Positions 10,684 through 28,157 of a stretch of DNA of 64,000 bases are shown here, piece after piece. The stretch lies in assembly GCA_023133275.1 (NCBI GenBank), contig JAGLWU010000021.1:1341-65340 (forward strand), written 5' to 3'. The notes beneath the pieces are model-generated. The model did no database searches and was not told the DNA's origin. It worked only from the letters and a program-made list of their open reading frames with translations. Numbering within the stretch: the first letter of the stretch is position 1; every line of letters starts with the position of its first letter. This stretch comes from Candidatus Moraniibacteriota bacterium (lineage in GTDB: Bacteria; Patescibacteriota; Minisyncoccia; Moranbacterales; GCA-2747515). A program made the translations under genes and the position numbers.

Positions 10684-10720
10684 GTAGGCACTCAGAAATC
10701 TAAGTGCCTACATTATTCTT
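10684..10720 (-). terminator. Rho-independent terminator overlapping the end of ORF 10700..11266
   Basis: On the minus strand: GTAGGCAC-ttagatttctga-GTGCCTAC then TTTTTTTATCC. Confidence 0.5.
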
Positions 10721-11266
10721 CCTCCTTTTCCTCAGCTTTACACACCAAGGAATAAAAACGAAAAAATAAATCAATAAACTGCCAATAATTTTATACTCTA
10801 TGCTAAGAGCAATAAAAAACAACAGCCTCCCTTTATAAATCCAATAAAGAATCTTCCCTAACAATAGGAAAACGTTCTTCATTGTTGTTTTGACGTAAAT
10901 CACGCCGCTCCAGAATTTCTTCCAAACCTTCCTAACTTTCTCAAAAAAATCTGAAATCTTCTTTCGGATTTTTCTTATAATTAGAATTAAGGCTTTTATT
11001 TTTTTCTTAACTCTTTTCAAAAAATCAAAAATTTCACTCCAAAATTTTTTTATCATTAAAACTAAAATAATAAAAAAAATGAATGCAAAAAAATAAATAA
11101 ATATTTCTCTTTTAAAAAAGAAGATTAATACTCCTATCCCCCAAATAATAAAAAATATATTAGAATATTTTTTATGAAGATCTTCTTTCATTACATTTTC
11201 TCCTTCATTCAAGAGATTATCAATTAAAGCTGTCCCAAACCGATATTTTTTGATTTCCTGATTCAT
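10700..11266 (-). CDS. Hypothetical Lys-rich membrane protein
   Basis: ORF only. Low-complexity, hydrophobic segments. Overlaps the next ORF by 47 nt. Ends inside a terminator hairpin. Confidence 0.3.
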   Translation of the reverse strand: MNQEIKKYRFGTALIDNLLNEGENVMKEDLHKKYSNIFFIIWGIGVLIFFFKREIFIYFFAFIFFIILVLMIKKFWSEIFDFLKRVKKKIKALILIIRKIRKKISDFFEKVRKVWKKFWSGVIYVKTTMKNVFLLLGKILYWIYKGRLLFFIALSIEYKIIGSLLIYFFVFIPWCVKLRKRRKNNVGT

Positions 11267-11639
11267 AAGAAGAATCTACATAACATCCAGCGAAAAGAAG
11301 AGCTATAACGATAATAACCGCAATGACATAACGGATGTTTTCAAACATAAATACAATAGCCCTGAAAAAAAATTTAATGATTTTTCCAATGCCAACAAAT
11401 ATGGAAATTATCACATTTATCGTACCGATTATTATAGGCCAAATTTGAACAATAGCCCAAATAATTCCAATAAGCAAGGCAAATAATAATGCTTCTGGTA
11501 AAAAAATACCAAGTGAACATACTATAAACAACCCTATCAGAACAATATAAATCATTCCGCTATTATTGTCTACAAAGTCTTTATTTTTTGCCAATGCTTT
11601 ATTCATAGGCGGACCAAGTTGCAATTTATTGTTTTTCAA
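11220..11639 (-). CDS. Hypothetical small polytopic membrane protein
   Basis: ORF with 3-4 hydrophobic helices. No recognisable motif. Confidence 0.3.
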   Translation of the reverse strand: MKNNKLQLGPPMNKALAKNKDFVDNNSGMIYIVLIGLFIVCSLGIFLPEALLFALLIGIIWAIVQIWPIIIGTINVIISIFVGIGKIIKFFFRAIVFMFENIRYVIAVIIVIALLFAGCYVDSSYESGNQKISVWDSFN

Positions 11640-13887: not shown

Positions 13888-14619
13888 TCAAATTTTATAA
13901 CTCTCAGGAACACAAGAATTTATAAAGAGTTTCCCAAAAGAAGTTACTTTTATGTCACTATTTATAAAGACTCCTACTTGCGTTTTACCATCATCGCTAC
14001 TAATAATTTCCTGATTTCCATTTTGCCACACGCCTGCAATATTCAAACTATACAAGTGATCCATATAAATAAAAAAGTTCTCTGGAAATTGCAATTTATC
14101 AATGGGAAATTCATTTTTAATAATTTTTTTATTAAAAAACAAATGCTTATTATGATCAAACTCTGACTGTTGCCTTAATTTATATAATTGTTTCTTTTTC
14201 AAAAAATACAGGATTACAGCTTCATCATGAGATAATTGTTGTATAATTTTTGGAAATGCTGGATGAACTAATCCTTGTTTTGTTTTATCTACTGAATTAG
14301 CTAATAAATTTACAAACATATCACACAACAAAGTATTTTCATAAGAAAGTGCTAATCCTTCTAGTACTGGAACAACAATTTGAGGATGCCCCTTAATAAG
14401 ATTTTTTTCTTCTACTTTTTCTGCAATATTTTTCAAATATCTCTCCCACCTACTACGATAAGCTGCAACATATTCAACTGGTGCCAACAAAAAACGCCCA
14501 GCTTTTACAGTATTACCTAAAGCCTTCCCTATTTCCTTCATGGCAGGACTCAGTCCATCATCATAGATTTTTTCTACAGGAGCTTCTTCAAGTATTTTTT
14601 TAGTAATTTCTTCTTCCAT
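13888..14619 (-). CDS. Hypothetical soluble protein (weak resemblance to DUF4393/Abi-alpha-type helical proteins; unverified)
   Basis: 243 aa ORF between two GT39 paralogs. No TM and no catalytic motif recognised. Confidence 0.35.
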   Translation of the reverse strand: MEEEITKKILEEAPVEKIYDDGLSPAMKEIGKALGNTVKAGRFLLAPVEYVAAYRSRWERYLKNIAEKVEEKNLIKGHPQIVVPVLEGLALSYENTLLCDMFVNLLANSVDKTKQGLVHPAFPKIIQQLSHDEAVILYFLKKKQLYKLRQQSEFDHNKHLFFNKKIIKNEFPIDKLQFPENFFIYMDHLYSLNIAGVWQNGNQEIISSDDGKTQVGVFINSDIKVTSFGKLFINSCVPESYKI

Positions 14620-14625
14620 AAAAAT

Positions 14626-16488
14626 TTATTTAAAAATAAACTTCAAATCCCGCAACGAACATTTTGCCCTTTCCTCTATTCCCAATTCTAACATAAAACA
14701 CCTATTTACACTTACTTCATAACCATTATTATTCAACCTATTTTTTTCAACAAAGTTATCCTTATTTTTCAAATCTAACTCAATCAAAATCACAGTTCCA
14801 AAATCAATCTCCTCAACAATTTCAAATTTATCTTTTAAATCTTTCGGCAATTTCACTTTATTTTTAAATTTATCAGCCTCTCGCAAAAGAAAATATAAAC
14901 CCTTTCTATCCAAATTTTCAACATTAATTTCAGTAACTGGCAATTCCTTTTCAATTTGCAAAAGATATAAAAGTGAACGAATATGATACGGGGAAGAATG
15001 TACATAGATATTCGAAAATTCATTTTCATCAAATCTATTTTCAATCACATCAGTAATTTTTTTCCACTGCTTATTTGTAACTAAATAATACGGCTCCAAA
15101 ATAAATTCATTTATTTCAACATCTTTTTTATCATCATTATCAATCATTTTGAGCCAACTGAAAGATTGCCAAAAATTCAAAATTATTAAAAACAACATTC
15201 CCACAAAAATTATCTTTTTACCATATTTTGGAAAATACTTTTCAAATAAAATTATCGCAAAACCCAATAAAATAAACGGTACAAATAAAACAACCAGAAA
15301 ATAACGCGAATCAACATCCAGCGACAACGGATAAAATAAAAATAAATAAACTACCTGCCAAATTAACATTAATAAAACAAAACGATTTTTCTGAATATTA
15401 ATTTTAGAAAAATTATCTTTTAATTTAGAGAAATAATTTCTCGCAAAAAAGTAAAAACTTATCATTAAAAAGATAAAAATTAAAATTGCTTTAAAAATAT
15501 TATTTTGTAAAACGCTGTTAGAAAAATTCTTTGTCATCAAATCATTTAAACCATCACTACTCTCAACTCTAATCGGATCACTGATAAAATTTTTCGACAC
15601 TAAAATATTTGTATAAAATCTGGTGAAATTGTAAACATTCATGAAAGATTTTTTTGGCATCGTCGCTTGTTCATCTGAAGCATTTCTTCTGATAGTTGCC
15701 TTTAGAAATTCCTGTGTATTTTCTCCTTTGGTTAAAATGTCATTACAAATCAGAGGAAAAAATAAAAAAATACTCACTGATCCAAAAATCGCAAAATGTT
15801 TTAAAGAAATTTTTACTCTAGTAATTATAAAATATAGAAATAATATTATTGGCAATCCGATCAGTGCGACTGTGTGAAGTTGCATCGCCCAAGCTGTTGA
15901 AAAAGCGAATGGAATAATCCAAAAAGTTTTATTGTCTAAGTTTTTTAGAAGATTTTTAATTTTTAGGAACAAAAAATTATGACTTTTTATTATTTTAATT
16001 TTTTTATTTTCTGCTCGAGAATAACGTAAAAGAGAGTAGAAAGATAATACTAAAAAAAACGGAATTGAATTTGGATTCCAAGAAAAATATGTATATTCCA
16101 CTACAAAAAGTGAAACTGAAAATAAGGCAATGAGATATAAAGAAATTCTTTTTGAAAAAAATTCTTTGAGTAAAAAGTAAAATGCTGGGATTGTTAAAAT
16201 TGAAAAAATCAATTCTGGTAAAACCATTGAAAAAACACTCAAACCGAAAATTTTACTACTGATTAAAGCTGGTAAATAAAATAATGATCCTAAACGAAAA
16301 AATGTTCCGCCTGCTTTTGGACCGACTAGTGGAAATTCGCCGATGCCGTTAGTTAAAACTTTATCGATGATTCTGTAATCTCGAGCTTGATCGATTTCGA
16401 AAAAGATGTTGTTGCTAAAATTATAGGTTCGTAAAAATATTCCTACGCAACAAATTGCTATTAAAATTATTATTGTTTTATTTTTCAT
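14626..16488 (-). CDS. PMT/ArnT-type GT-C membrane glycosyltransferase, paralog 3
   Basis: N-terminus FEIDQARDYRI...PLVGPKAGG is paralogous to the other two. Polytopic. C-terminal soluble domain. Confidence 0.65.
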   Translation of the reverse strand: MKNKTIIILIAICCVGIFLRTYNFSNNIFFEIDQARDYRIIDKVLTNGIGEFPLVGPKAGGTFFRLGSLFYLPALISSKIFGLSVFSMVLPELIFSILTIPAFYFLLKEFFSKRISLYLIALFSVSLFVVEYTYFSWNPNSIPFFLVLSFYSLLRYSRAENKKIKIIKSHNFLFLKIKNLLKNLDNKTFWIIPFAFSTAWAMQLHTVALIGLPIILFLYFIITRVKISLKHFAIFGSVSIFLFFPLICNDILTKGENTQEFLKATIRRNASDEQATMPKKSFMNVYNFTRFYTNILVSKNFISDPIRVESSDGLNDLMTKNFSNSVLQNNIFKAILIFIFLMISFYFFARNYFSKLKDNFSKINIQKNRFVLLMLIWQVVYLFLFYPLSLDVDSRYFLVVLFVPFILLGFAIILFEKYFPKYGKKIIFVGMLFLIILNFWQSFSWLKMIDNDDKKDVEINEFILEPYYLVTNKQWKKITDVIENRFDENEFSNIYVHSSPYHIRSLLYLLQIEKELPVTEINVENLDRKGLYFLLREADKFKNKVKLPKDLKDKFEIVEEIDFGTVILIELDLKNKDNFVEKNRLNNNGYEVSVNRCFMLELGIEERAKCSLRDLKFIFK

Positions 16489-17113
16489 TCAATTCCCTTT
16501 CTATTTTGTGTTTCTCTACATCTTCACATTTTAACATGTCAACAATATCACCATATTCATAACAATTATTTTTATCTTTTGCATAATTAAGTTCATCATA
16601 ATAATCTTCAACAAGCTGAAAAGTTTTTGGATCAGCTCCTTCTATTATGCTAGTTACAGCGTAAACGTTATTTTTATCTATTGAGTAAAAATAATTCAAA
16701 GATTCAAAAGTGTTTGAATCTGCATTTTTTATAATTTTATCTTCATGGTAAACAAAATTTTTATCTATTGAATAATTATATTTTAAAGGTTTAAAAGTCT
16801 TTGCATCAGCTTCTTTTATTTTTTGCATAAAATAAGAATCTAATTTATTATAGTCTCTTACATAAACATTGCTTTTATCAACTGCATAATATTTATGTAT
16901 TTTCCTAAAAGTCAAAGAATCAGCTCCTTCTACTATTTTTTCATTATAATAAACACTACCATTTTTATACCCTACAAATTCTCTTCCAATAGAATAAGTA
17001 ATATTGTTTTTTATATTAATAATTTCTCTCAAATTATAATAAGCCAGTAAAATAAAAATAAGCCAAACTACAATTAAAACTATATATTTATACTTTTTTA
17101 AAAATTTTTTCAT
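16478..17113 (-). CDS. DKNYY-family repeat protein, N-terminally membrane anchored
   Basis: N-terminal TM. Four repeats of the form GADxxTF...(Y/L)xxDKNxVY: DKSNVYVRD, DKNFVYHED, DKNNVYAVT, DKNNCYEYG. Confidence 0.7.
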   Translation of the reverse strand: MKKFLKKYKYIVLIVVWLIFILLAYYNLREIINIKNNITYSIGREFVGYKNGSVYYNEKIVEGADSLTFRKIHKYYAVDKSNVYVRDYNKLDSYFMQKIKEADAKTFKPLKYNYSIDKNFVYHEDKIIKNADSNTFESLNYFYSIDKNNVYAVTSIIEGADPKTFQLVEDYYDELNYAKDKNNCYEYGDIVDMLKCEDVEKHKIERELNEK

Positions 17114-17162
17114 AAAATTACTCTAAATAATTATTTCAATCACTATACCCCGAAACACAAAA

Positions 17163-18188
17163 TCAATCAAACAACCACCCAAACAAACTAAATTTATTTT
17201 TCTCTTTCAAAACAAACTTATCAATATTTTCATTTAACTCTTTAATTTCTTTTTTATCTTCATTCAACAACTCAATCGAACCCTGATTTTCAGTCTGTCG
17301 CAACAACTCATCCAATTCATCAATATGATTTTTATAACTCTCAATTTTCCCATCCAATTCATTCAGTTTATCATAATCAGAACCAATCAAAAAAGTCTTC
17401 AACTTCGAACGATTTTGCACCGCTGTCTGAATAATTTGCCTATCGACCTCGTCCACTAAAAATTCATAATAGCCCTTTTCAATTTTATCCTCTAACGTTT
17501 CAGTTCTCAAAGCATTAAATTTCATCTCATCAGAAAATTTACAGGAGCTATGAAAATTACCCAGCTCATTGCCACGAATCAAATTTGCATTCATTTCCTC
17601 AATTGAGTCCGACCAATATTTTCCACCCGGCGATCCACCTCTCGGTCGAGTACAATTTATTCCATTTCTCTGATTATTTAAAATCGTATTATTGTTTATT
17701 TTAAATTCACCTGTCGCATCCGCATCTTTATAATATTGAAAAAGAATTCCGTTCGCCACATTGTTAGAAATAATATTATTAGAAATATCTATTTTAGTAA
17801 AACCCATCACAACTTCAATCCCACTTAAATCATTATTTTCAATTTTATTATTTGAAATTACGCCTCTTACATCATCTCTAATATCAATCCCTTCCTCAAA
17901 ATTATCAGAAATATTTGAATTGGCGATATTAAAATCCCTACCTTTTTTAATATAAACTGCTTTAGCTGTTTTCGTAACTTTAGAATCTTCCAAATTAAAC
18001 TGACCTTTTCCATCCGTCTCAATGCCAATTTTTCCCCCAGACACAATTATATTTTTGATCGTAACATTAGACCCATTACCAACCCATATATTTACCTCGT
18101 TTTTCAAATACGAATTTAAATACCATTCATCTCCTGATTTCTTTTCCAGAATTGACGAAATATTTTCTAATCGTGAATTACCCGCCAT
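17163..18188 (-). CDS. Right-handed parallel beta-helix repeat protein (NosD/pectin-lyase fold) with C-terminal coiled coil. The 5' end appears truncated.
   Basis: PbH1-type repeats (ISDNFEEGIDIRDD, ISNNKIENNDLSGIEV, ISNNVANGILF, ILNNQRNGINC). Lacks a signal peptide. Upstream, in frame but behind a TGA, lies a typical beta-helix N-cap (see findings). Confidence 0.6.
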   Translation of the reverse strand: MAGNSRLENISSILEKKSGDEWYLNSYLKNEVNIWVGNGSNVTIKNIIVSGGKIGIETDGKGQFNLEDSKVTKTAKAVYIKKGRDFNIANSNISDNFEEGIDIRDDVRGVISNNKIENNDLSGIEVVMGFTKIDISNNIISNNVANGILFQYYKDADATGEFKINNNTILNNQRNGINCTRPRGGSPGGKYWSDSIEEMNANLIRGNELGNFHSSCKFSDEMKFNALRTETLEDKIEKGYYEFLVDEVDRQIIQTAVQNRSKLKTFLIGSDYDKLNELDGKIESYKNHIDELDELLRQTENQGSIELLNEDKKEIKELNENIDKFVLKEKNKFSLFGWLFD

Positions 18189-18581
18189 TATTATTTTACC
18201 TTTAATAATTGTTTTTTCTCGATCTTCACCAATTAAATTAGCATCTGAAAAAATTATATCATCTTCATAAACACCGTTGGCAACATGAATATTTTTCGCT
18301 CCACCTCAACAGCCTGTGAAATTTTTTTAAAAGGTCATTCTTTACTTCCATCACCTTGATAAAAATAATTAATGTCTACATAACAACCCTCTCCATTCAA
18401 AAAACAACAACATTGATTTGCTAAAATTGTTTTTGGAAAAATATAAAATAAGCTAAAAAAAATTACAAAACACAAAACTATTTTTTTTATTCATAAAAAA
18501 TTATTAAATCATTTACTATTTACTCTAAATATACTAAGATTCATATAAAGACATTATCATTATATTAGAACAATAAATTTT

Positions 18582-20825
18582 ATGCAAACAATTCTATTAA
18601 AAGTTAAACCACTTTGGCTAAACATTTCTCTAACATTATCAATCACAATAATTTTAATCCACAAAATCGATTTATTAAATAATTTAAGATTTTTAAACTC
18701 ATTGAAAATATTTTATCTATTATTTTTAATTTCACTTTTTGGAATAATATTTTTAAAATTGTTGAAAGTTATAAATAATAAATCACTAATTTTACACACG
18801 CTTCCCACTCAAATTATTTTATTCATCGGAATTCATTCAACTGAAAATTTACATTATATTTTTAATTTACTCGTTGGCATATGGCTAATCTTCGGCGGAA
18901 TTTTAATTGTAAAAAAAATTACAAAACAAAATAATCACCAAAAATCATACTCAAAAAGTTTCACCAAACAAAGTGTATTTTTTTTAATTTTAATAATTTC
19001 TTGCCAACTATTTTTTGCACTTTATCAAGTTGACAAAGCACTTTACATCGATGAAAAACTCTGGACTTACAGCAAAGAAAAACGAATTGAAAAATATTGG
19101 AATAACATTTTTGAACAAGATTGGAAAAATACCCGACCCAGCGACAAACCTGGAGTAACTTTAGCCATCATTTCTGGAATTGGATTATTTTGGGAAACAC
19201 CTTCAGATTTTTTAAATATTGAAGAAAATAATTATTCAAAAGACGAATTTTTAAAAATGCTTTTCAGAATGAGATTGCCAGTAATTCTTTTTGCCTCACT
19301 AAATTTAATCATTTTTTATTTTCTGTTTTCAAAATTATTTAATAATAAAACTGGATTACTTACCACTACACTGATTGGACTTTCCCCGCTGTTGATTGGA
19401 ATAAGTCGAGTGATAAATCCAGACGCTTTCAGTTGGATTTTAATGTCGCTCACAATAATCACTTATTTCATTTATCAAAAAAACAACAAACCAAAATATC
19501 TCTATGCAACAGGAATTTTACTCGGATTATCTTTACTCACAAAATATATTGCCAATTTGTTAATTCCATTTTTTCTAGCAGAAATTTTCATTCAAACAAT
19601 TTTATTTAACGTAAACGAAAAAGATTTACCAAAAATTTTAAAGAAAAAATTTCTCAATTTTATTGAAATTATTATTTTAGCGTTAATCACTTTTTACATT
19701 CTTTACCCTGGAACGTGGGTCGCCCTAGACAGATTGTTAAAAGGAACATTGTGGAGTCAAGCTTTCGAACCATTTTGGAAACCGTTTATTACTTTCATAT
19801 TTTTATTTACAGTCGATTTATTCTGGCTCAACTCAAAATTTTTCTCTTCAATTATTCTAAAGCTCCAAAAATTTAAAAAAGTTTTATTTTTTTCTGTGCC
19901 AACAATTTTTACTTTTTCAATATTATTCACTCTATTAAATGTTTACACTCAAATGAGTTTTATCAATTTTGAATATTTTATAGCATCACCAAAAAGTGCA
20001 GGTGGCGAAAGTTTAATTTCCGTTTTTTTCTCAGGATTTTATAGTTTAATTTTCGGCATCACACCTTTAGTTTTCTTCGGACTTTTGCTAACTTTATTTT
20101 TTGTTTTAAGAAAAATTAAGAAAAATAAAAACACTCTAAAAATTAATTTCCAAAATTATTTCATCTGGCAAATATTGTTCTTCATTTTTATTTTTTATCT
20201 ATCTTCTGCATTCAGTGAAGTAGTTCCCATGGTTCGTTACCAAATTATAATTTATCCACTCACAATAATTTTAGCAACTTTAGGCTACACACAATTATTT
20301 GAAATGGAAAAACTAAAAAACTTTTCTAAAAAAATATTTCCAATCTTTTTACTTTTTGTTATTTTTACAAACTGTTTTATTTTATGGAATTTAAAACCTA
20401 ACTTTTTTAGTTACAATAGTTTTCTACTCCCGAAAAAATATATTATTAATCCAAAAGATATTGGCGATGGAAATTATGAAGTCGCTCAATTTTTAAATAA
20501 ATTGCCAAATGCAAAAAATTTAAAAATCTGGTCTGACAAAAATGGTATTTGTAATTTATTTATTGGAAAATGTTATTCTGTTGAACATCCTGAGGATTTT
20601 GAATTTCACGGTCCCGATTATGATTATTTTGTTATTTCTCGTGGGCGAAAAAGTAAGATTGTGAGATTGACTAATCAAAGACTTGACGGTAATCCTGATT
20701 ATGAATTGCGATTGGATAGACTTTATTTTACCGACAAAATTTTAAAAGAGTTTAACCCAGGTAATCGTAAGGTTAATTTTATTCGTGTAATTGAGAGTGA
20801 TGATGTGAAAGTTTGGGAAAAGTAA
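18582..20825 (+). CDS. Large polytopic GT-C-like membrane glycosyltransferase candidate with C-terminal soluble domain
   Basis: 747 aa with more than 12 TM. Acidic loop ALYIDEKLWTYSKEKRIE after the first TM cluster (a DE-type motif). C-terminal roughly 150 aa hydrophilic. Confidence 0.45.
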   Translation: MQTILLKVKPLWLNISLTLSITIILIHKIDLLNNLRFLNSLKIFYLLFLISLFGIIFLKLLKVINNKSLILHTLPTQIILFIGIHSTENLHYIFNLLVGIWLIFGGILIVKKITKQNNHQKSYSKSFTKQSVFFLILIISCQLFFALYQVDKALYIDEKLWTYSKEKRIEKYWNNIFEQDWKNTRPSDKPGVTLAIISGIGLFWETPSDFLNIEENNYSKDEFLKMLFRMRLPVILFASLNLIIFYFLFSKLFNNKTGLLTTTLIGLSPLLIGISRVINPDAFSWILMSLTIITYFIYQKNNKPKYLYATGILLGLSLLTKYIANLLIPFFLAEIFIQTILFNVNEKDLPKILKKKFLNFIEIIILALITFYILYPGTWVALDRLLKGTLWSQAFEPFWKPFITFIFLFTVDLFWLNSKFFSSIILKLQKFKKVLFFSVPTIFTFSILFTLLNVYTQMSFINFEYFIASPKSAGGESLISVFFSGFYSLIFGITPLVFFGLLLTLFFVLRKIKKNKNTLKINFQNYFIWQILFFIFIFYLSSAFSEVVPMVRYQIIIYPLTIILATLGYTQLFEMEKLKNFSKKIFPIFLLFVIFTNCFILWNLKPNFFSYNSFLLPKKYIINPKDIGDGNYEVAQFLNKLPNAKNLKIWSDKNGICNLFIGKCYSVEHPEDFEFHGPDYDYFVISRGRKSKIVRLTNQRLDGNPDYELRLDRLYFTDKILKEFNPGNRKVNFIRVIESDDVKVWEK

Positions 20826-20902
20826 AAAATTACGTTAGAAGAAGCTATAAACTTATTTAAATGGTATAATAAAAAAGATAAAAAATTTAAATCTAAAAAA
20901 TC

Positions 20903-22483
20903 ATGGAAAAACCTAATTTCAAAAAAATGAGCAAATCAAAAATCACTAAAGTAATCGCAATAAGTTTCACTATAATTTTAGCAACTTCAATCATTTGGAA
21001 AATCCTAAATAAAAAAACCACCGAAACAAATATTGATTTATCTTTTGTCCAAAAAGTAGAAAATATCACGCCCCCAACTTTTCCAGATAATGTTTGTAAT
21101 GTTGTTGATTATGAAGCAGTTCCAAATCTTACAAAAACATTAGAAACGGCACAATATTTGTCATCAAAAGAACAATTTGAAAAAATGATAAAAGGAGCTA
21201 AAGAAGGAGAAAAGCAAAATTTTCAAGCATTTCAAAAAGCCGTAGAAGACTGCTCAAATAAAGGTGGCGGGACAGTAAAGATTCCGGCTGGTGAATGGAA
21301 AGTCGGCGGACCAATTCATTTGAAAAGCAATATTAATTTACATTTAGAAGAAAACGCCGTAATTTCATTTTCAAGCAATCCCGATGACTTTTTACCAGTT
21401 GTGAAAACTCGATATGCAGGTTTAGAGCTGTACAACTATTCCCCGATGATTTACGCACTAGATTGTGAAAATATTGCCATCACCGGAAAAGGAACGATCC
21501 GCGGAATTACTGAACCAAATAATTGGAAACCTTTTATAAAAAATAAAAAGAAGGCTGAAAAACGACTTTACAAAATGGCAAATAATAATATTCCGCTTGA
21601 AGAAAGGATTTTTGGAACTGTGGAAGATTCACTGCGACCATCAATGATTCAACCTTACAATTGCAATAATATTTTGATCGAAGGAATAAAAATTGAAGAA
21701 GGTCCGATGTGGACACTCCATGTACTTTACACAAATAATTTAATTATTCGTGATTTAAATATTGAAACAAGAAGCACAAACAACGACGGAATTGTTATAG
21801 ATTCCTCAACAAATGTTTTGATTGAAAATAATAATTTAGCGACTGGCGATGATGCGATTGCCATAAAATCTGGAAAAGATAGAGACGGCTGGCGAGTTGG
21901 AAAACCGTCAGAAAATATTGTAATCAGAAATAATAAAGTTACCGAAGCTCATGCTGGTGTAGCGATTGGTAGCGAGATGTCTGGTGATGTACGAAATGTT
22001 TTGATTGAAAATTTGAATGTTGAACAGGCTGATCGTGGCATTAGAATTAAAAGTCGAGTTGGGCGTGGTGGCACTGTAGAAAATATTCTTGTTCAAAATA
22101 GTATTATTAAAAATTCCGGAAGAAAAGAACCCCTTCAAATTAATTTTGATTACGGATCAAAATCTACCCAACCAAAAACTAAGAAAAAACCTGAAATTCG
22201 AAATGTCGAATTTAGAAATATTGAAATTGATAGTGATGCAGAAAATGCTATTGAAATTGTTGGACTTAAAAATCAAATGTCTTCTATTTTATTTAAAGAT
22301 ATTGAAATTAAAAATACTAATCAATTTGTAAGAGTTGATAATGCTGAATTTATTAAATTTGAAAATATTACTGGCGTTTTTTTCAAAATGAAGAATTCTG
22401 CCAATCTTGAAATTGTGAATGATGCTTGTCCAAAAGTTGAACAGGGAAAATCTGAAAATATTATTATTGACTGTAAAAAATAA
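20903..22483 (+). CDS. Membrane-anchored GH28-like beta-helix glycoside hydrolase, paralog 2
   Basis: Colinear with 4256..5833 (CSNKGGGTVKIPAGEW; NNDGIVIDSS; TGDDAIAIKSG; AHAGVAIGSEMSGDVRNV; RIKS). N-terminal TM. Confidence 0.75.
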   Translation: MEKPNFKKMSKSKITKVIAISFTIILATSIIWKILNKKTTETNIDLSFVQKVENITPPTFPDNVCNVVDYEAVPNLTKTLETAQYLSSKEQFEKMIKGAKEGEKQNFQAFQKAVEDCSNKGGGTVKIPAGEWKVGGPIHLKSNINLHLEENAVISFSSNPDDFLPVVKTRYAGLELYNYSPMIYALDCENIAITGKGTIRGITEPNNWKPFIKNKKKAEKRLYKMANNNIPLEERIFGTVEDSLRPSMIQPYNCNNILIEGIKIEEGPMWTLHVLYTNNLIIRDLNIETRSTNNDGIVIDSSTNVLIENNNLATGDDAIAIKSGKDRDGWRVGKPSENIVIRNNKVTEAHAGVAIGSEMSGDVRNVLIENLNVEQADRGIRIKSRVGRGGTVENILVQNSIIKNSGRKEPLQINFDYGSKSTQPKTKKKPEIRNVEFRNIEIDSDAENAIEIVGLKNQMSSILFKDIEIKNTNQFVRVDNAEFIKFENITGVFFKMKNSANLEIVNDACPKVEQGKSENIIIDCKK

Positions 22484-22637
22484 AGTTTAATTAAAATTTT
22501 AAAAATATAGATTTTAACAAAAAGTCTGAAACTAAAAAAATTATAAACTTATCAAAAAAGTTTTTAAATAAACTAATATTCCCCATCAAATTATCTTATT
22601 GATTGCAGAAAAATTTATTGGATTTTCTAAATTAAAT

Positions 22638-24443
22638 TTATTCAACTTTGTAAATCAAAAAAGAAGTTCCAACTTGAGCAATCGGTTTATACTTTAAAGT
22701 CCAACGATAAGAATTATCATCTGACAGTTCCGAATTATAAATAGAGCCTTGAAGATGATTCACAGAAATAGCATAGTAACCTTTTTCAATCGGACGTTTA
22801 GAATCCCACCACTCAATAAATCTATCCTCGCCTAATCTATTACTTGGTCGATCACCACCAAAATAATGCACATGAATTTTATCAATTTCAGGATGTTCAT
22901 TTAAATATTTTTCAAGTCGTTTCAAGTCTTGCCCCCAATCAGCATTCGAATCAGTCATAATTTTATAACCATTTTTCGGACCGCCAACTGTTTGATTAAA
23001 ATAAGAAATATAATAAGGATAAGCCCAAATCACCTCAGTAATCATTAGCGAAATCATAGCAATAAAAACATAACGAATAGCAATAATTCCCTTTCCATTG
23101 ATTAACTTACTATAAATATTTACACAAACTCTGGCGGTAATTAAATAAATTAAAGGCATTATCGGAAATAAATGACGAAAACCAATATTTAAATTTCCCG
23201 TGATTGAAATGTAAAGATAAAAAATAATAAATAAAATAAGAGAAATTTCGGTAAAATTATGTAAGATATATTTTCGTCCGCCACTCAATGATTTTGTAAT
23301 TTTTTGCGAAAAAAGTTTTAAAATATCTTGATAAATTAAAATCAAGAAAGTGCTAATGGCAAAAACATAAAAGAAAAGATGAAATAATGTCTGTTTTGTT
23401 ATAAAAGCAACAGGAAAATAAGTAGGAAAAGATTGGTTAGCAACTTGTCCCATAAAATATGCACCATTGCCTCCAGCTACTCTATTTTTTACATACATAA
23501 CGCCGTACACATAAGTTCCCAACGATCGAGTAAGTGAATTTTTGTTTGTTAAAATTATAAAATTAAATGCTTGTTGATCAATAATTCCATCATCAGGATT
23601 TATTTTTGCGGGTGTGAGAGTGGAGAGAACTTCCGTCGGCATATTGTAAGTAAATGGAATATAAGTAAGCCAAATTACAAAAAATATAGTAAATCCTATC
23701 AAAATACTTTTCTTAAAATAATTCAAAATAAAACGAAATTTGTGATTTTCTATTTCAAATAATTTAAAAATTATAAAAGTAATCAGTAATAATACAAAAA
23801 ATATAACAAGAAGTATTGCTGAAAATTTTGTAATTTGGGCGATTCCTAGAGTGAGTCCAGTCAAGAAAGCATTTTTCCAGCTAGGATGCCGAACGAAAGA
23901 TAAAAAGAAATAAAAAGCAAAAACCATTGCAGCTGCAATTCCGATGTCAGTGGTAACTAAATGATTATGTCCTAAAATATTTGGATCGAAAACACAAAGC
24001 AAAAGTGCAAAAATCCCTGTGGCTGTTCCGCCAATTTTTTTACCCCATTGAAAAAGTAGAAGAGCAAGTCCGATTGAAATTAAAATAATTGGCAAACGAG
24101 CGAAAAAAGTAATTTGATCGACATTATTTCCTACTTCGTGAAGGAGGTGATGTCCGGCTTGCCATTGTTTGTATTCTCCCCACTGATTAGTTTCGTTCCA
24201 TAAATTTTGGCTAGTTTCAAAGTTTAAATTTAAAAATAATAATGGAATTCCTGAAAGAACTTTGACTAATGGTGGATGTTCAGGATTTAATCGGTAGTCG
24301 AATTCTGAAACGTAACTGTATCCAGCGGGAATGTGAGCGACTTCATCAAAAGTTAGTGAATCGTCGTTGGCTAATTTTACTGAAACGATTGTTAAAAAAA
24401 GTATTGCGAGAGTGATAATTATTTTATAATGCTTAGTGAACAT
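22638..24443 (-). CDS. GT39-type (protein O-mannosyltransferase-like) GT-C membrane glycosyltransferase
   Basis: Loop-1 motif TFDEVAHIPAGYSY matches the PMT FDEVH signature. Polytopic, with a C-terminal soluble domain. Start moved to the internal ATG (MFTKHYKIII...). The longer extension would overlap the neighbouring gene and its terminator. Confidence 0.7.
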   Translation of the reverse strand: MFTKHYKIIITLAILFLTIVSVKLANDDSLTFDEVAHIPAGYSYVSEFDYRLNPEHPPLVKVLSGIPLLFLNLNFETSQNLWNETNQWGEYKQWQAGHHLLHEVGNNVDQITFFARLPIILISIGLALLLFQWGKKIGGTATGIFALLLCVFDPNILGHNHLVTTDIGIAAAMVFAFYFFLSFVRHPSWKNAFLTGLTLGIAQITKFSAILLVIFFVLLLITFIIFKLFEIENHKFRFILNYFKKSILIGFTIFFVIWLTYIPFTYNMPTEVLSTLTPAKINPDDGIIDQQAFNFIILTNKNSLTRSLGTYVYGVMYVKNRVAGGNGAYFMGQVANQSFPTYFPVAFITKQTLFHLFFYVFAISTFLILIYQDILKLFSQKITKSLSGGRKYILHNFTEISLILFIIFYLYISITGNLNIGFRHLFPIMPLIYLITARVCVNIYSKLINGKGIIAIRYVFIAMISLMITEVIWAYPYYISYFNQTVGGPKNGYKIMTDSNADWGQDLKRLEKYLNEHPEIDKIHVHYFGGDRPSNRLGEDRFIEWWDSKRPIEKGYYAISVNHLQGSIYNSELSDDNSYRWTLKYKPIAQVGTSFLIYKVE

Positions 24444-24507
24444 ATTTTTGTTATTTTTTATTTTGTTAGTTTTAATTTGTAATTTAATTATAACATTGTT
24501 TTTTGTA

Positions 24508-24552
24508 AAAATAAAAATCCGTGCCAGCGATGGTTCCGCCAGCACAGATTTT
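24508..24552 (-). terminator. Rho-independent terminator of the zinc-ribbon gene
   Basis: On the minus-strand RNA the stem is CUGUGCUGGCGG-AACCAU-CGCUGGCACGG (with G-U pairs), followed by AUUUUUAUUUUU. Confidence 0.5.
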
Positions 24553-24747
24553 TTACCATATTTCTTCATTCCCATCTTCTGCGTTTACGCTACGTTTACG
24601 TTCATAACATACAGGACATATTTTTGTTTGAGGGATTTCTCCTCCCAAAAATATTCCCTCACATTTAGGACAAGTATAACTCGTAGCAGGTAACTCCTGA
24701 AAATACCCCCACCAAGTTACAGTCTCGCCTTTTTTATTTTTATACAA
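24553..24747 (-). CDS. Small zinc-ribbon protein
   Basis: CPKC...x17...CPVC. TTG start preceded by AGGAGA 8 nt upstream. Own terminator downstream. Confidence 0.5.
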   Translation of the reverse strand: MYKNKKGETVTWWGYFQELPATSYTCPKCEGIFLGGEIPQTKICPVCYERKRSVNAEDGNEEIW

Positions 24748-25051
24748 AATTTTATCTCCTATAATTTATAAATAAAAAAACATAAACAAAAAAACCGATC
24801 GATATCGGCTTATATTTACTAACAAGAAGTTTTAAAAAAGTATTTTTACAAACAAAAACAAGCCGACCTCTGATATGATCGCCACCACCAAACTTGTTTA
24901 TCAATTGTCTGTTTATTCAAATTCATAATACCATCATACACAACAAAAAAAATCTCGTCAACCCAACATAAACAAAAAAAGACTGATCTCCCGCTTGAGA
25001 CCAGCCTATTTTTACCAATAAAAAACAATAATCATTTTTTACAAACAACCT

Positions 25052-25378
25052 CTAGCCCCTACTAAAAACTAATCTCTCCAATTTAATCATTCTTTTTTCA
25101 AGAGCATTAAACTCATCTCGATCAACCTTTTCCGACAATTTATGTTTAATCTCAGTAACATCTTCCTGCAAAACATCAACCTTCTCTTCAACATTACCCA
25201 ATCTATCTTTTACTTCCACCATATCAGTTTTTAAAATTGAAACATCTTTTTCAATATTATTCAAATGTCTATTAGTTATATCATTCTGATCAAAAGCAAG
25301 CTGAACTGTGCTAGTTAAAGCTTCAATCATAGATCCAACTTCATCAATATTATAAGTTTTTTTATTTTCTTTTTTCAT
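25052..25378 (-). CDS. Small coiled-coil protein, hypothetical
   Basis: 108 aa. Heptad-rich with charged residues. No motif. Confidence 0.4.
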   Translation of the reverse strand: MKKENKKTYNIDEVGSMIEALTSTVQLAFDQNDITNRHLNNIEKDVSILKTDMVEVKDRLGNVEEKVDVLQEDVTEIKHKLSEKVDRDEFNALEKRMIKLERLVFSRG

Positions 25379-25527
25379 ATCTTTATTATAAAATATCTTA
25401 TAACTTATTTTATTTTCTCTTATGCTTATAATATACCTCTAATTAAAATAAAAGTCAAAAAAATAAAAGTAAATTTTAAAAATCTACTTTTATTTTCACA
25501 TTTCAATTGTATCTTTTTTACAAAAAA

Positions 25528-26559
25528 CTAAATTAAATGAGCTTTAATCATCAAACGCCTATCATTCGTACCAAGTGGCCAACAAGTCGTCAACGTCAAA
25601 ACCTGCAATTGAGTATTAGCAAAGATACGCGGATCATCATCATTAACTTCAAGCTTTTCACTCACCTCATATTCATAATTAAAAGTCTTTCCATTTTTTT
25701 GCGTAACCGTAAGCGTAATTTTATCACCAACATTTAAATTATTTAAATTTTGAAAAATAAAATTATAACTTCCTGCTGACCAAGAATAATTACTACTGTG
25801 CCCTGCAATGTAAGTATTTCCACGTTGACCCGGCATCGCTGTTTTCGGATAATGAACAACGCCACCCTCCAAATCTTTTTGCAAAGCATCCTCTGAACCA
25901 TCATTCGATAAAATCACAGGAGCATCAATACCAATTTTTTTAATTTTAATTTCCACTTTTGGACGTACAGTACCCAAAGCCACTGGATCATAACCATTTT
26001 CAATTTCAGTTAAATCATCGTAACCATCACCGTCTGTATCAGCTTTATTTGGATCAGTGCCATGAGCTTTTTCCAAATCATTACTCAAACCATCATTATC
26101 AAAATCATCTTCATTACGATTTTCGTCATCCAATTTTACAGTTAAACTTTCACTAGATTTTTCATCTTTAACTATTTGAGCATCATCTAATTTTCCATCT
26201 CCAGTTGGAGAATTTCCATTAACAATTTCTTCGCCATCTTTATACCCATCGCCGTCAGTGTCGTCGCTAAATGGATTGGTTAAATATAAATATTCTTGTT
26301 CCAAAGTTAATCCATCATTATCTGCATCAGCCTGTGCGTCTTCCATTGAACTAATTGAAATTTGATAACGATCTAACCAATACGGTGAAATACCAAAATT
26401 TTGTTCAGCTAATTTATCCATCAGTTGAGTTGTCGTTATAGTTGTTTTTTTGTCTGTTTTCATCAAATTCTGCATCCGAGTGATTCCGCCTCCGAAAATA
26501 AAATACATTAAACTGAATACTATGATGAAAATTATAATTGTTGGTAAATATTTTTTCAT
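25528..26559 (-). CDS. Sortase-family transpeptidase with N-terminal TM and thrombospondin-type-3-like Ca-binding repeats
   Basis: C-terminal sortase fold with His (YIAGHSS), Cys (LTLTTCWP) and Arg (RRLMIKA). Upstream region carries DADNDGLTLEQEY, DDTDGDGYKDGEEI and DFDNDGLSNDLE...DTDGDGYDDLTEIENGYDP repeats. Confidence 0.75.
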   Translation of the reverse strand: MKKYLPTIIIFIIVFSLMYFIFGGGITRMQNLMKTDKKTTITTTQLMDKLAEQNFGISPYWLDRYQISISSMEDAQADADNDGLTLEQEYLYLTNPFSDDTDGDGYKDGEEIVNGNSPTGDGKLDDAQIVKDEKSSESLTVKLDDENRNEDDFDNDGLSNDLEKAHGTDPNKADTDGDGYDDLTEIENGYDPVALGTVRPKVEIKIKKIGIDAPVILSNDGSEDALQKDLEGGVVHYPKTAMPGQRGNTYIAGHSSNYSWSAGSYNFIFQNLNNLNVGDKITLTVTQKNGKTFNYEYEVSEKLEVNDDDPRIFANTQLQVLTLTTCWPLGTNDRRLMIKAHLI

Positions 26560-26748
26560 TTAAAATAGTTATTGGTTTTTTAATACTAACCGTAAACTAT
26601 AGCATTTTAAATGTTGTTTGTCAATAGGTGTATAATTTTAGTTTCATCTCGCTATCATTATGCTCGAAATACTAATATAAAAAGTTTTTAAGAAATCTGC
26701 TTAACTAAATTACAATTTTTTTGTCAAAGAAAATTTTTAGATTTTTTT

Positions 26749-26930
26749 GTGCTCGTCGCACGGGCTTTTGAGGTTTGCCAATGGCAAACCACTACAGATT
26801 TTTAAACTCCCTCAGACATATCATTCCAGAAAATAACTTTATAATAAAATGGAAAAATTATTTATCCGAAATCTATATTTTAAGATTTAAGAAAATTTAA
26901 AGCATAACATTCTTTCAGAATAACACACTA
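26749..26930. repeat. Mosaic palindromic intergenic repeat element (modules A+F+C+D), copy R1
   Basis: GTGCTCGTCGCACGGGC (26749-26765). Palindrome GGTTTGCCAATGGCAAACC (26772-26790). ATTTATCCGAAATCTATATTTTAAGATTTAAGAAAATTTAAA (a near-identical copy is at 45568-45609). CATTCTTTCAGAATAACAC. Confidence 0.8.
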
Positions 26931-27008
26931 AAAAAATTTTGAAAAATCACAATCACTACCAAATATCTCAAATAAAGAAATTGAAAATAGTTAAGTCAAT
27001 GATCAAAT

Positions 27009-28157
27009 TTATTCCTCTTTTTTAAAAGTCAAAAGAAAAAGCCCAACAATTATTGCTCCCACGAAAATAATCAAAGTCATTGGCAACCAAGAATGTCTTG
27101 CAAAAAATCGATTTTCTTCTTCATCGCAAACATCTCCAATGCCGTCGACATCTTCATCTTTCTGATAACGATTTGGATTATTTGGACAATTGTCATCAGG
27201 ATTCAAAACCCCATCACGATCAAAATCATCACACGCATCTCCCCGATCATTTCCATCAATATCCTTCTGATTTTCATTAGCAATTAAAACGCAATTATCA
27301 ATTTCATCTGAAATACCATCCTCGTCAGAATCCGCTTTTTTGTAAATAGAATTTAAATTAATGGTAACATTATTAATTTTCAAAATATCTTTATTACTTC
27401 GCAAATTTGGCATTTCACCAGTTTCAACTTTTGTATAAATATCCGCATTGTAATAAATACTGTAAGACTTTTCAGAATAAGCTAAAAACCTAACAGATTT
27501 ATTAACTTGCTGTAAATCAGTCGGATTAAAACTTATTTCTCTAATTCGCAAAGGTTGCGAGTACTCTAATTCAATCTTAAAATCTTTTGCAAATACTTTT
27601 GGAAAATTAATTGTACTAGATTTCATCGGAGATTTAGCAAAAATAATTTTTTCAGCTTGACTTTCCTTGTCGTAAATAGAAATTTTAATCGTCTTTGGTA
27701 AAGCAACATATTTGTCAAAATTAAAAGTCAATGAAAAAGTTGAGACATTCTTGTCCGCAGAAATATTTATAGAAACTTTACTAATTTGTCCATCATCAGA
27801 AACAGAATATTCTTCAAAAGTATCTTTATTCTCATCCACTAATTGTGAATCATATTTACTTTTAAAATTAACTTTTTTAACTTCGCTTTTGGAAATAACT
27901 AAACTTGGCACAAATGAATTATCTGAATCATCCACTGTTGCCACGCTATTTAAAATTTCTTTTTCAAAATTTATCGGAACTTCTACCACTGTTGGCACTT
28001 TGATATTTTGTTTTGAAACACTTATTACAGATTGAAAAGATTCTAACGAATTTTCCTCCACTTTTTTATCATTAACATCACTTTTTTTATTTTCAGCTAA
28101 AACCAATGAACTGAAACTAAAAAATATCAACAAAAAACCTAAAAAAATTTTATTCAT
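27009..28157 (-). CDS. Secreted thrombospondin type 3 repeat (Ca-binding) protein with C-terminal LPMTL + hydrophobic + KKEE anchor
   Basis: Signal peptide. C-terminal DSDEDGISDEIDNC...DIDGNDRGDACDDFDRDGVLNPDDNCPNNPNRYQKDEDVDGIGDVCD (TSP3 DxDxDGxxDxxDNC repeats). Ends WLPMTLIIFVGAIIVGLFLLTFKKEE. Confidence 0.65.
   Translation of the reverse strand: MNKIFLGFLLIFFSFSSLVLAENKKSDVNDKKVEENSLESFQSVISVSKQNIKVPTVVEVPINFEKEILNSVATVDDSDNSFVPSLVISKSEVKKVNFKSKYDSQLVDENKDTFEEYSVSDDGQISKVSINISADKNVSTFSLTFNFDKYVALPKTIKISIYDKESQAEKIIFAKSPMKSSTINFPKVFAKDFKIELEYSQPLRIREISFNPTDLQQVNKSVRFLAYSEKSYSIYYNADIYTKVETGEMPNLRSNKDILKINNVTINLNSIYKKADSDEDGISDEIDNCVLIANENQKDIDGNDRGDACDDFDRDGVLNPDDNCPNNPNRYQKDEDVDGIGDVCDEEENRFFARHSWLPMTLIIFVGAIIVGLFLLTFKKEE

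What the first reader, a model, noticed from the sequence alone, without database searches (positions are those of the whole stretch)
18189..18500. Decayed or frameshifted 5' region of the beta-helix gene, including an A8 homopolymer at a remnant signal-peptide start
The annotated beta-helix ORF starts at ATG 18188 with no signal peptide. Immediately upstream, in the same frame, the minus strand reads TGA-GGAKNIHVANGVYEDDIIFSDANLIGEDREKTIIKGKII-MAGNS. That is a typical beta-helix N-cap (IxV..GxYxE...IxGE...TIIxG) separated from the ORF only by upstream stops. Further upstream, ATGAATAAAAAAAATAG (an A8 tract) would, with one fewer A, open a frame. That frame encodes MNKKIVLCFVIFFSLFYIFPKTILANQCCCFLNGEGCYVDINYFYQGDGSKE, which is signal-peptide-like. 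The gene therefore looks recently truncated, pseudogenising, or switched by homopolymer slippage.
Basis: seen in the sequence. Interest (0 to 1): 0.5.

Follow-up and report, generated by a model that had tools for sequence, protein, structure and literature searches.

The report
Recently broken start of secreted beta-helix gene
The first 300 bases of a gene for a secreted sugar-polymer-modifying protein in an uncultured Moranbacteria genome carry three disabling mutations that intact relatives lack, so the annotated 341-residue protein is the leftover of an ordinary, recently broken gene, not a genetic switch.

Summary
On the minus strand, ATG 18494 is followed by an A8 run. Dropping one A opens a frame that encodes a signal peptide. 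The stretch just upstream of ATG 18188 encodes beta-helix N-terminal sequence.

Three syntenic orthologues (433-444 aa, 52-70% identical) are intact and cover this whole remnant. Against them the window has three lesions:
- One extra A (A8, where the one orthologue that starts ATGAAT has A7), at 18481-18488.
- TGA where all three have a Gln codon, at 18335-18337.
- One G lost from GTG-GGA, at about 18301-18303.

TGA is a true stop in this genome. The sequence is identical in three assemblies from two sequencing runs.

Restoring A7 alone would give only a 52-residue peptide, so a homopolymer on/off switch is not supported. The tract is also not conserved in orthologues. A/T runs of 8 or more are common here (41 in 64 kb, 30 of them inside intact ORFs).

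The remnant is no more diverged than intact orthologues are from each other, so the inactivation is recent. The same genome holds an intact paralogue.

Verdict: an ordinary young pseudogene or 5'-truncated gene, annotated as a 341-aa protein. I cannot exclude that the truncated ORF is still used. Interest is low.

The parts
17163..18188 (-). Residual 341-codon ORF, annotated as a right-handed parallel beta-helix repeat protein (MCK4635630.1). It corresponds to residues 95-435 of intact orthologue P0002.
   Evidence: Pfam Beta_helix 1.5e-16 and NosD 1e-8. 71% identical to P0002 over 341 aa.
18189..18305 (-). 39 open codons in the ORF frame upstream of Met 18188 (GGAKNIHVANGVYEDDIIFSDANLIGEDREKTIIKGKII). 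They encode the first coils of the beta-helix. There is no start codon in this stretch.
   Evidence: Aligns to GAKNIYVANGIYEE...REKTIIKGKII of P0002. These are strands 60-96 in the AlphaFold model of P0002.
18301..18303 (-). Lesion 3: a 1-nt deletion. The ancestral sequence was GAG GTG GGA GCG (..E V G A..) and is now GAGGTGGAGCG, so one G of a G3 run is lost. This is where the shifted frame and the ORF frame meet.
   Evidence: Orthologues read GAA ATG GGA GCA (L003) and GAA GTG GGT GCA (L006). Adding one G gives QAVEVGAKNIHV, which matches QAVEVGAKNIFI of L006.
18335..18337 (-). Lesion 2: an in-frame TGA within GDGSKE-TGA-PFKKISQAV. The three syntenic orthologues have a Gln codon (CAA or CAG) here.
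   Evidence: TGA is a true stop in this genome.
18304..18480 (-). Remnant coding sequence that now lies in the +1 frame relative to ATG 18494. It covers the hydrophobic part of the signal peptide, the CCCFLNGEGCYVD segment, the GDGSKE-x-PF motif and the cap helix ISQAVEV.
   Evidence: 65% identity to the N-terminus of the L005 orthologue, E 2e-23. tblastn E 8e-9.
18481..18488 (-). Lesion 1: the A8 run, one A more than the in-frame state (ATG AAT AAA AAA ATA = MNKKI).
   Evidence: Orthologue L006 starts ATGAATAAAAAAATA (A7, MNKKI). Removing one A restores MNKKIVLCFVIFF....
18492..18494 (-). Ancestral start codon of the full-length gene (443 codons once the two indels are repaired).
   Evidence: Same position relative to the conserved leader as in the orthologues.
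18419..18494 (-). Remnant of a Sec-type signal peptide (MNKKIVLCFVIFFSLFYIFPKTILA|NQ), split by the extra A.
   Evidence: Two Lys in the first five residues and a hydrophobic core with hydropathy 3.16, as in the orthologues (2.7-3.1). Helix 2-19 in the model of P0002. No dedicated signal-peptide predictor was available.
18559..18588 (-). Best sigma-70-like promoter match upstream of the gene (TTTGCA-18-TATAAT, 10 of 12). It overlaps the start of the divergent PMT_2 gene.
   Evidence: This is a consensus match only, and the number of such hits in the region is close to the shuffled expectation.
18511..18542 (-). 5' leader block conserved at DNA level in all four orthologous loci (GAATCTTAGTATATTTAGAGTAAATAGTAAAT). 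This suggests the upstream control region is still intact.
   Evidence: No Rfam family matches.

Best explanation
This is the 5' end of a recently inactivated gene. The ancestor encoded a secreted protein of about 443 residues. It had a Sec signal peptide, an N-terminal cap, a right-handed parallel beta-helix of the carbohydrate-active type, a helical tail and a conserved C-terminal FSLFGW motif. The gene sits in a conserved envelope and glycan gene cluster of Candidatus Moranbacteria.

In this lineage, three mutations accumulated within about 190 nt:
- Replication slippage added one A to the Lys-codon run behind the start codon (A7 to A8).
- One codon became TGA.
- One G was lost from a G3 run.

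Translation from the original ATG now stops after 13 codons, so the signal peptide, cap helix and first two helix coils cannot be made. The 341-codon ORF that annotation pipelines call is simply the undamaged rest of the gene, read from the first internal Met. That Met is a position where family members often carry Met.

What is shown: the homology, the synteny, the three lesions, their reproducibility and the standard genetic code.

What is inferred: the protein is no longer exported or functional, the loss is tolerated because an intact paralogue exists, and the events are recent.
For: - Syntenic orthologues (PMT_2 divergent, then beta-helix, DKNYY, PMT_2) are intact at 433-444 aa. They contain the signal peptide and every segment of the remnant.
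- The remnant is significantly homologous, but in a different frame. Repairing the two indels gives a 443-codon frame with a single TGA. The repaired protein also gains a DUF1565 match that spans the N-terminus.
- The code is standard. There are ORFs up to 873 aa without TGA and dense packing under table 11. The beta-helix gene itself ends with TGA at the same residue where the orthologues end. No tRNA gene lies in the window.
- This is not an assembly artefact. The ENA assembly and the Logan assembly of SRR13892600 are 100% identical to the window over 13 and 11.7 kb. The contig from a second run, SRR13892601, is identical across all three lesions. Thirty other A/T runs of 8 or more are in frame in intact ORFs.
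- The inactivation is recent. Remnant identity to the orthologues (0.58-0.66) equals that among the intact orthologues (0.51-0.69). There is no rate acceleration on the window branch. All family-invariant residues in the remnant are retained.
- There is redundancy. An intact 490-aa paralogue, P0006, occurs in the same MAG (GCA_030630955.1) and in the same runs.
- Structure: in the model of P0002 (pLDDT 89.7), the window's Met 103 maps to residue 95, inside the third rung. The truncated product would therefore lack the signal helix, the cap helix (residues 50-55) and strands 60-89.
Against: - All three lesions fall in the first 23% of the gene, while 1026 nt downstream carry none. The naive probability is 0.012. 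It rises to about 0.05 after allowing that all runs of 7 or more lie in the 5' part and that the nonsense target fraction there is 0.235. This leaves some room for continued selection on the 341-codon ORF.
- The window copy has the fewest lineage-specific amino-acid changes in that part: 5, against 12 and 16.
- The genome hardly uses Shine-Dalgarno motifs. Initiation at the AT-rich context of ATG 18188 therefore cannot be excluded.
- No expression data and no read-level data were available.
Confidence: 0.8

Rival explanations
1. The gene is truncated but still in use. After export was lost, a 341-residue cytoplasmic beta-helix protein is made from ATG 18188 and kept by selection. Alternatively, the ORF is kept open only to keep ribosomes on the operon mRNA, avoiding polarity on the downstream DKNYY and PMT_2 genes.
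For: - The lesions cluster in the 5' 23% of the gene, and the remaining 1026 nt are unblemished.
- The window lineage has the lowest number of unique amino-acid changes in that part.
- The catalytic-region invariants (NxEEGIDIR and others) are retained.
- The leader and promoter-like sequences are conserved.
- No terminator lies between this gene and the downstream genes.
- The genome is poor in Shine-Dalgarno motifs, so an internal AT-rich start is conceivable.
Against: - The clustering is only borderline (about 0.05) once the hot-spot distribution is considered. It is equally explained by very recent inactivation.
- The truncated product starts inside the third rung. It lacks the cap helix and two coils, which general knowledge of beta-helix capping suggests would destabilise it.
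- Every homologue found has an N-terminal signal peptide.
- Met at this column is a common family variant, not a new start.
Confidence: 0.1
2. The gene is a phase-variable or recoded gene. Slippage of the A8 run, at the DNA or RNA level, restores the frame and switches on production of the secreted protein.
For: - The A8 run lies directly behind the start codon, and one fewer A restores the signal-peptide frame.
- Homopolymer indels rescued by transcriptional slippage are documented in AT-rich endosymbionts and in tssM (PMC3017870, PMC4256274, PMC5009743).
Against: - An A7 transcript or allele yields only 52 residues before TGA 18337..18335. A further -1 shift at about 18302 would then be needed, and there is no X XXY YYZ slippery motif there.
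- The tract is not conserved: A7, A5 and A4 in the orthologues.
- No length variation was seen in three assemblies from two runs.
- A8 runs are commonplace here, and many genes start ATGAAAAAA.
- The documented cases involve single indels in runs of 9-11 or more, in otherwise intact genes (PMC3017870, PMC4256274).
Confidence: 0.03
3. The lesions are sequencing or assembly errors, and the real gene is intact.
For: - Two of the three lesions are single-base length changes in homopolymers, a classic error type.
- The source is a metagenome-assembled genome. All full-length assemblies may derive from one sample.
- The second run has low coverage here, with a contig gap at 18272-18298.
Against: - Different assemblers give identical sequence, and so does a second run.
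- The TGA is a substitution, not a homopolymer error.
- Thirty other runs of 8 or more, and two of 9, are in frame within intact ORFs of the same window.
- The G2/G3 site is too short to be error-prone.
Confidence: 0.05
4. The organism reads TGA as an amino acid (code 4 or 25), so the TGA is not a lesion.
For: Some candidate-phyla-radiation lineages recode TGA (own knowledge). GC content is 30%.
Against: - Under table 11 the window is densely packed with ORFs of up to 873 aa that lack any TGA.
- Five long genes end in TGA with normal spacing to the next gene.
- The beta-helix gene ends with TGA exactly where the orthologues end.
- Even if this were true, it would remove only one of the three lesions.
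Confidence: 0.01

Closest known systems
Gene erosion that starts with homopolymer frameshifts in AT-rich, reduced bacterial genomes (for example Blochmannia and Buchnera; PMC3017870)
   Same: The genome is AT-rich and full of A/T runs. A +1 indel in a poly(A) run inside Lys codons breaks the frame. The gene otherwise looks fresh, with no rate acceleration.
   Different: The run here is only A8. It is accompanied by a nonsense codon and a second indel, so transcriptional slippage cannot rescue the gene. The host is a free-living or episymbiotic CPR bacterium, not an insect endosymbiont.
Phase-variable contingency loci with homopolymeric tracts near the 5' end of surface-protein genes (own knowledge), and transcriptional frameshifting at poly(A) as in Citrobacter tssM (PMC4256274)
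   Same: A homopolymer lies directly behind the start codon of a gene for a secreted, envelope-associated protein.
   Different: Changing the tract length does not give a full-length ORF. The tract is not conserved in orthologues. No length polymorphism was seen. The tssM tract is A11, in an otherwise intact gene.
Right-handed parallel beta-helix carbohydrate-active enzymes: mannuronan C5-epimerases AlgE4 and AlgG, GH87 alpha-1,3-glucanase, pectin methylesterase (Pfam Beta_helix PF13229, NosD PF05048)
   Same: Pfam matches lie above the curated cut-offs. The AlphaFold model of the orthologue is a beta-helix whose best PDB matches are these enzymes (E down to 3e-7).
   Different: Sequence identity is only 10-16%. 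No catalytic residues could be assigned. The family has its own helical C-terminal tail and FSLFGW motif. The substrate is unknown.

Membership tests
Pseudogene or disrupted gene | Homology along its whole length to intact, longer orthologues at the syntenic position | tested here: met
   Three syntenic loci hold intact genes of 433-444 aa.
Pseudogene or disrupted gene | Disabling lesions relative to the orthologues that prevent synthesis of the ancestral product under the organism's genetic code | tested here: met
   +1 A, TGA and a 1-nt deletion. The code is standard.
Pseudogene or disrupted gene | The lesions are real and not sequencing errors | tested here: met
   Identical sequence in the ENA assembly, the Logan assembly of SRR13892600 and the Logan assembly of SRR13892601. 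Raw reads were not inspected.
Pseudogene or disrupted gene | No functional product from the remaining ORF | not testable with these tools
   This needs transcript or protein data. The structural argument (loss of the cap helix and two coils) is inference only.
Phase-variable contingency locus (homopolymer switch) | A change in tract length toggles between a full-length ORF and a truncated one | tested here: not met
   The A7 version stops at TGA after 52 codons, and a second frameshift follows.
Phase-variable contingency locus (homopolymer switch) | Tract length is polymorphic within or between populations | tested here: inconclusive
   All three assemblies from two runs show A8. Minority alleles in the reads could not be examined.
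Phase-variable contingency locus (homopolymer switch) | The tract is conserved or over-represented relative to background | tested here: not met
   Orthologues have A7, A5 and A4. The window has 41 runs of 8 or more in 64 kb, and many genes start ATGAAAAAA.
Frameshift rescued by transcriptional slippage (Buchnera/Blochmannia type) | A single indel in a long poly(A/T) run in an otherwise intact gene | tested here: not met
   Two further lesions lie downstream. The run is A8, whereas the cited cases count tracts of 9 or more, up to 11 (PMC3017870, PMC4256274).
Right-handed parallel beta-helix repeat proteins (PF13229, PF05048) | Pfam match above the gathering score | tested here: met
   Beta_helix scores 60.8 bits against a cut-off of 25.9. 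NosD scores 35.4 bits against 23.6.
Right-handed parallel beta-helix repeat proteins (PF13229, PF05048) | Beta-helix fold | tested here: met
   The AlphaFold model of orthologue P0002 has pLDDT 89.7 and regular three-strand rungs. Foldseek hits AlgE4, AlgG, GH87 and pectin methylesterase.
Sec signal peptide (ancestral N-terminus) | A positively charged n-region, a hydrophobic h-region and a small-residue cleavage motif | tested here: met
   MNKK, then a hydrophobic core with hydropathy 3.16, then ILA|N, as in the orthologues. This is a simple measure only; no SignalP-type predictor was available.
Alternative genetic code with TGA as a sense codon (tables 4 and 25) | In-frame TGA inside conserved genes, with TGA not used as a terminator | tested here: not met

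The most novel reading that the evidence does not exclude
The truncation is not dead weight. After the export signal and N-cap were destroyed, the 341-residue beta-helix plus coiled-coil protein is still made from the internal ATG 18188 and kept by selection. It could be retained as an intracellular protein with a changed role, or as a translated spacer that protects the downstream DKNYY/PMT_2 operon from polarity. That would explain why three lesions hit the first 306 nt and none hit the following 1026 nt.
Probability: 0.08. Interest if true: 0.35.

Novelty: already known. Interest (0 to 1): 0.12.

Why it matters
The main value is for annotation. The deposited protein MCK4635630.1 (341 aa) is the 3' three-quarters of a broken gene and should be flagged as a pseudogene or partial gene. 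It should not be counted as a cytoplasmic beta-helix protein.

The case also gives a small, clean example of how genes start to erode in an AT-rich candidate-phyla-radiation genome: a slip in a Lys-codon A-run behind the start codon, plus a nonsense codon and a second indel. An intact paralogue remains in the genome. It does not open a new question.

Tried and rejected
- **Alternative genetic code (TGA as Gly or Trp).** Rejected on stop-codon usage, on the long TGA-free ORFs, and on the shared C-terminus with the orthologues.
- **Suppressor tRNA or a structured RNA in the window.** No tRNA and no Rfam family were found.
- **Homopolymer sequencing error.** Rejected because three assemblies from two runs agree, and 30 other long runs are in frame.
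- **The contig break in SRR13892601 at 18272-18298 as a sign of a G2/G3 polymorphism.** The two contigs overlap by 27 nt, less than the k-1 = 30 expected if Logan's k-mer size is 31 (own knowledge). Both are identical to the window. This fits a coverage gap rather than a variant bubble, so it is not evidence either way.
- **P0003 (406 aa, no signal peptide) as a second truncated orthologue.** Rejected. Its ORF is open from ATG 5887 in L005 and encodes a full signal peptide, so the caller merely picked a later GTG.
- **Met 103 as a newly evolved start codon.** Rejected. Met is common at that column in distant homologues.
- **Shine-Dalgarno strength as a test of the internal start.** Uninformative, because the genome hardly uses SD motifs.
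- **Searches for closer relatives.** Two scans of GTDB genome contigs found no relative. The first attempt failed for lack of a conserved stretch.
- **Relative-rate tests for relaxed selection.** These showed no acceleration. Synonymous sites are too saturated at 30-50% protein divergence for a meaningful branch dN/dS.

Full report
**Observation**

All coordinates below are read on the minus strand.

- The ORF 17163..18188 is 341 aa and begins MAGNSRLENISS.
- In the same frame, TGA at 18308..18306 is followed by 39 open codons, GGAKNIHVANGVYEDDIIFSDANLIGEDREKTIIKGKII. These run straight into that Met.
- At 18494, ATGAATAAAAAAAATAG carries an A8 run (18488..18481).
- In the frame of the ATG, translation stops after 13 codons (MNKKNSFVFCNFF*).
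- In the +1 frame the sequence reads (MNKK)IVLCFVIFFSLFYIFPKTILANQCCCFLNGEGCYVDINYFYQGDGSKE, then TGA (18337..18335), then PFKKISQAVEV....
- ATG 18494 and ATG 18188 are 306 nt apart, so they share a frame. The stretch between the A run and about 18302 is therefore displaced by one base.

**Organism and genetic code**

- The window has 30% GC. Its beta-helix protein is identical to MCK4635630.1 from a Candidatus Moranbacteria MAG.
- Under table 11 the window is about 80% covered by 40 ORFs of 150 aa or more, up to 873 aa, with no internal TGA.
- Five long genes end in TGA with normal spacing to the next gene.
- The beta-helix gene ends with TGA exactly where its orthologues end (..FSLFGWLFD).
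- TGA is therefore a stop codon in this genome. The window holds no tRNA gene and no Rfam family.

**Orthologues**

I searched with the repaired protein and found full-length relatives:

| Protein | Length | Identity | Query coverage |
|---|---|---|---|
| P0002 | 435 aa | 69% | 100% |
| P0003 | 406 aa (as called) | 65% | 91% |
| P0004 | 433 aa | 52% | 100% |

More distant Moranbacteria-type homologues of 404-490 aa also turned up.

The loci of the three close relatives are syntenic with the window. Each has a divergent PMT_2 gene, then the beta-helix gene, then DKNYY, then PMT_2, and one locus also has Abi_alpha. P0003 only seemed to lack a signal peptide. Its ORF is open from ATG 5887 in L005 and encodes MCRKWIFVLGFFLFIFCSFTQVSLADECCCFLNGEGCYVD....

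All three orthologues therefore share the same layout: a signal peptide, a short Cys/Tyr-rich segment, GSKEQPFNKISQAVE[VMA]G[AS]KNI, and then the helix.

The window's displaced frame matches the L005 N-terminus at 65% identity (E 2e-23). By tblastn, P0002 residues 3-59 hit frame -1 (E 8e-9) and residues 57-435 hit frame -3 (E 2e-177).

**The three lesions**

1. **A8 run.** L006 starts ATGAATAAAAAAATA (A7, MNKKI). The window has one more A.
2. **Nonsense codon.** The window's TGA aligns with CAA or CAG (Gln) in all three orthologues. This position varies in more distant homologues (Q, D, K, M), so the number of mutational steps to TGA is uncertain.
3. **Single-base deletion.** The orthologues read GAA ATG GGA GCA or GAA GTG GGT GCA, while the window reads GAGGTGGAGCG. 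Adding one G gives QAVEVGAKNIHV, which matches QAVEVGAKNIFI of L006.

Repairing the two indels gives a 443-codon frame with the single TGA. The repaired protein gains a DUF1565 match spanning residues 48-280, which the 341-aa ORF lacks.

**Are the lesions artefacts?**

- The ENA assembly (ERZ23498525) and the Logan assembly of SRR13892600 are 100% identical to the window over 13.0 and 11.7 kb.
- A contig from a second run, SRR13892601, covers window 18272..18581 and is identical across all three lesions.
- In that second run the assembly breaks between 18272 and 18298. The two contigs overlap by 27 nt and both equal the window, which looks like a coverage gap rather than a variant.
- Thirty of the window's 41 A/T runs of 8 or more sit in frame inside intact long ORFs.

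Error is therefore unlikely, although I could not inspect reads.

**Age of the inactivation**

- Remnant identity to the orthologues is 0.58-0.66. Among the intact orthologues the same region shows 0.51-0.69.
- Relative-rate tests with L006 as outgroup show no excess change on the window branch. In the N-terminal part the window has 8 lineage-specific changes against 9 for L003, and 4 against 11 for L005. In the 341-codon part the counts are 14 against 28, and 20 against 32.
- All family-invariant residues in the remnant are kept.

The inactivation is therefore young compared with the divergence of these species.

**Is this a switch?**

No.

- An A7 allele or transcript would make only the 52-residue peptide that ends at the TGA. 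A further -1 shift would then be needed, and there is no slippery motif at that site.
- The tract is not conserved: A7, A5 and A4 in the orthologues.
- A-runs right after ATG are ordinary in this genome, where many genes start ATGAAAAAA.
- Documented rescue by transcriptional slippage concerns single indels in longer runs in otherwise intact genes (PMC3017870, PMC4256274; review PMC5009743).

**What was lost**

The AlphaFold model of P0002 (pLDDT 89.7) shows these elements:

- a signal helix at residues 2-19
- a strand at 28-31
- a cap helix at 50-55 (ISQAVE)
- beta-helix rungs from residue 60 to about 300
- a helical tail of about 110 residues

The best PDB matches are the mannuronan C5-epimerases AlgE4 and AlgG, GH87 glucanase and pectin methylesterase, at 10-16% identity. 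The window's Met 103 corresponds to residue 95 of P0002, inside the third rung. A product started there would lack the export signal, the cap and two coils. I infer that it would be neither exported nor stable. This rests on general knowledge of beta-helix capping and is not tested here.

**Redundancy**

An intact 490-aa paralogue (P0006, MCK4635809.1) occurs in the same MAG, GCA_030630955.1, and in the same runs. This makes the loss of one copy plausible.

**The residual doubt**

All three lesions lie in the first 23% of the gene, and the remaining 1026 nt have none.

- The naive probability of this is 0.012.
- All homopolymers of 7 or more are in the 5' part, which makes the A-run hit expected there.
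- The nonsense target fraction of the 5' part is 0.235, and short runs make up 0.21.
- The joint probability is therefore about 0.05, which is borderline.

The genome barely uses Shine-Dalgarno motifs, and no terminator separates this gene from DKNYY and PMT_2. A truncated product, or selection to keep the ORF translated, cannot be excluded. I give that about 10%.

**Verdict**

This is an ordinary, recently disrupted gene. Its undamaged 3' part has been annotated as a protein. Novelty: already known. Interest is low.

Noticed in passing
window 17163..17200 (-), and the C-termini of P0002-P0028: Every homologue ends in a nearly invariant motif, (N)KFSLFGW[LIF]F. It follows a helical or coiled-coil tail of about 110 residues behind the beta-helix. 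It looks like a family-specific anchoring or sorting signal, but its function is unknown.
   Followed up: no
window 18511..18542 (-); L003 about 2100-2135, L005 about 5750-5785, L006 about 5945-5980: A block of about 32 nt in the 5' leader (GAAT[CT][TC]TAGTATATTTAG..AA.AGTAAA) is conserved at DNA level in all four orthologous loci, although the proteins are only 52-70% identical. L003 and L005 carry a GC-rich insertion (GTGCGGCGAG...) right after it. No Rfam family matches. It could be an operator or a leader element.
   Followed up: partly
whole window: The genome almost entirely lacks Shine-Dalgarno motifs upstream of its genes, and many genes begin ATGAAAAAA. There are 41 A/T runs of 8 or more in 64 kb, 30 of them in frame within intact ORFs. 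The GC skew of the + strand is strongly negative throughout (-0.2 to -0.5), with nearly all genes on the minus strand.
   Followed up: partly
window 13888..28157: The neighbourhood is an envelope and glycan cluster. It holds three PMT_2-type glycosyltransferases (14626..16488, 18582..20825, 22638..24575), a GH28 polygalacturonase-like protein (20903..22483), a DKNYY protein (16478..17113), an Abi_alpha protein (13888..14619), a sortase fused to a TSP3 repeat (25528..26559) and a TSP3-repeat protein (27009..28157). The order PMT_2, beta-helix, DKNYY, PMT_2 is conserved in relatives.
   Followed up: partly
L005 1322..2620: One related genome carries a second beta-helix paralogue (432 aa) plus a 223-aa ORF inserted between the GH28 and PMT_2 genes. 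The family therefore expands and contracts locally.
   Followed up: no
window 10700..11639 (-): Two ORFs without any Pfam match (139 aa ending in TGA, and 188 aa) overlap by 47 nt. They could be a second split gene or just overlapping small genes.
   Followed up: no
L011 and L013 (run SRR13892601), window 18272..18298: In the second run the assembly breaks 3 nt downstream of the deletion site. The two contig ends overlap by 27 nt and are identical to the window. This is most likely a coverage gap, but read-level inspection at this spot would be worthwhile.
   Followed up: partly
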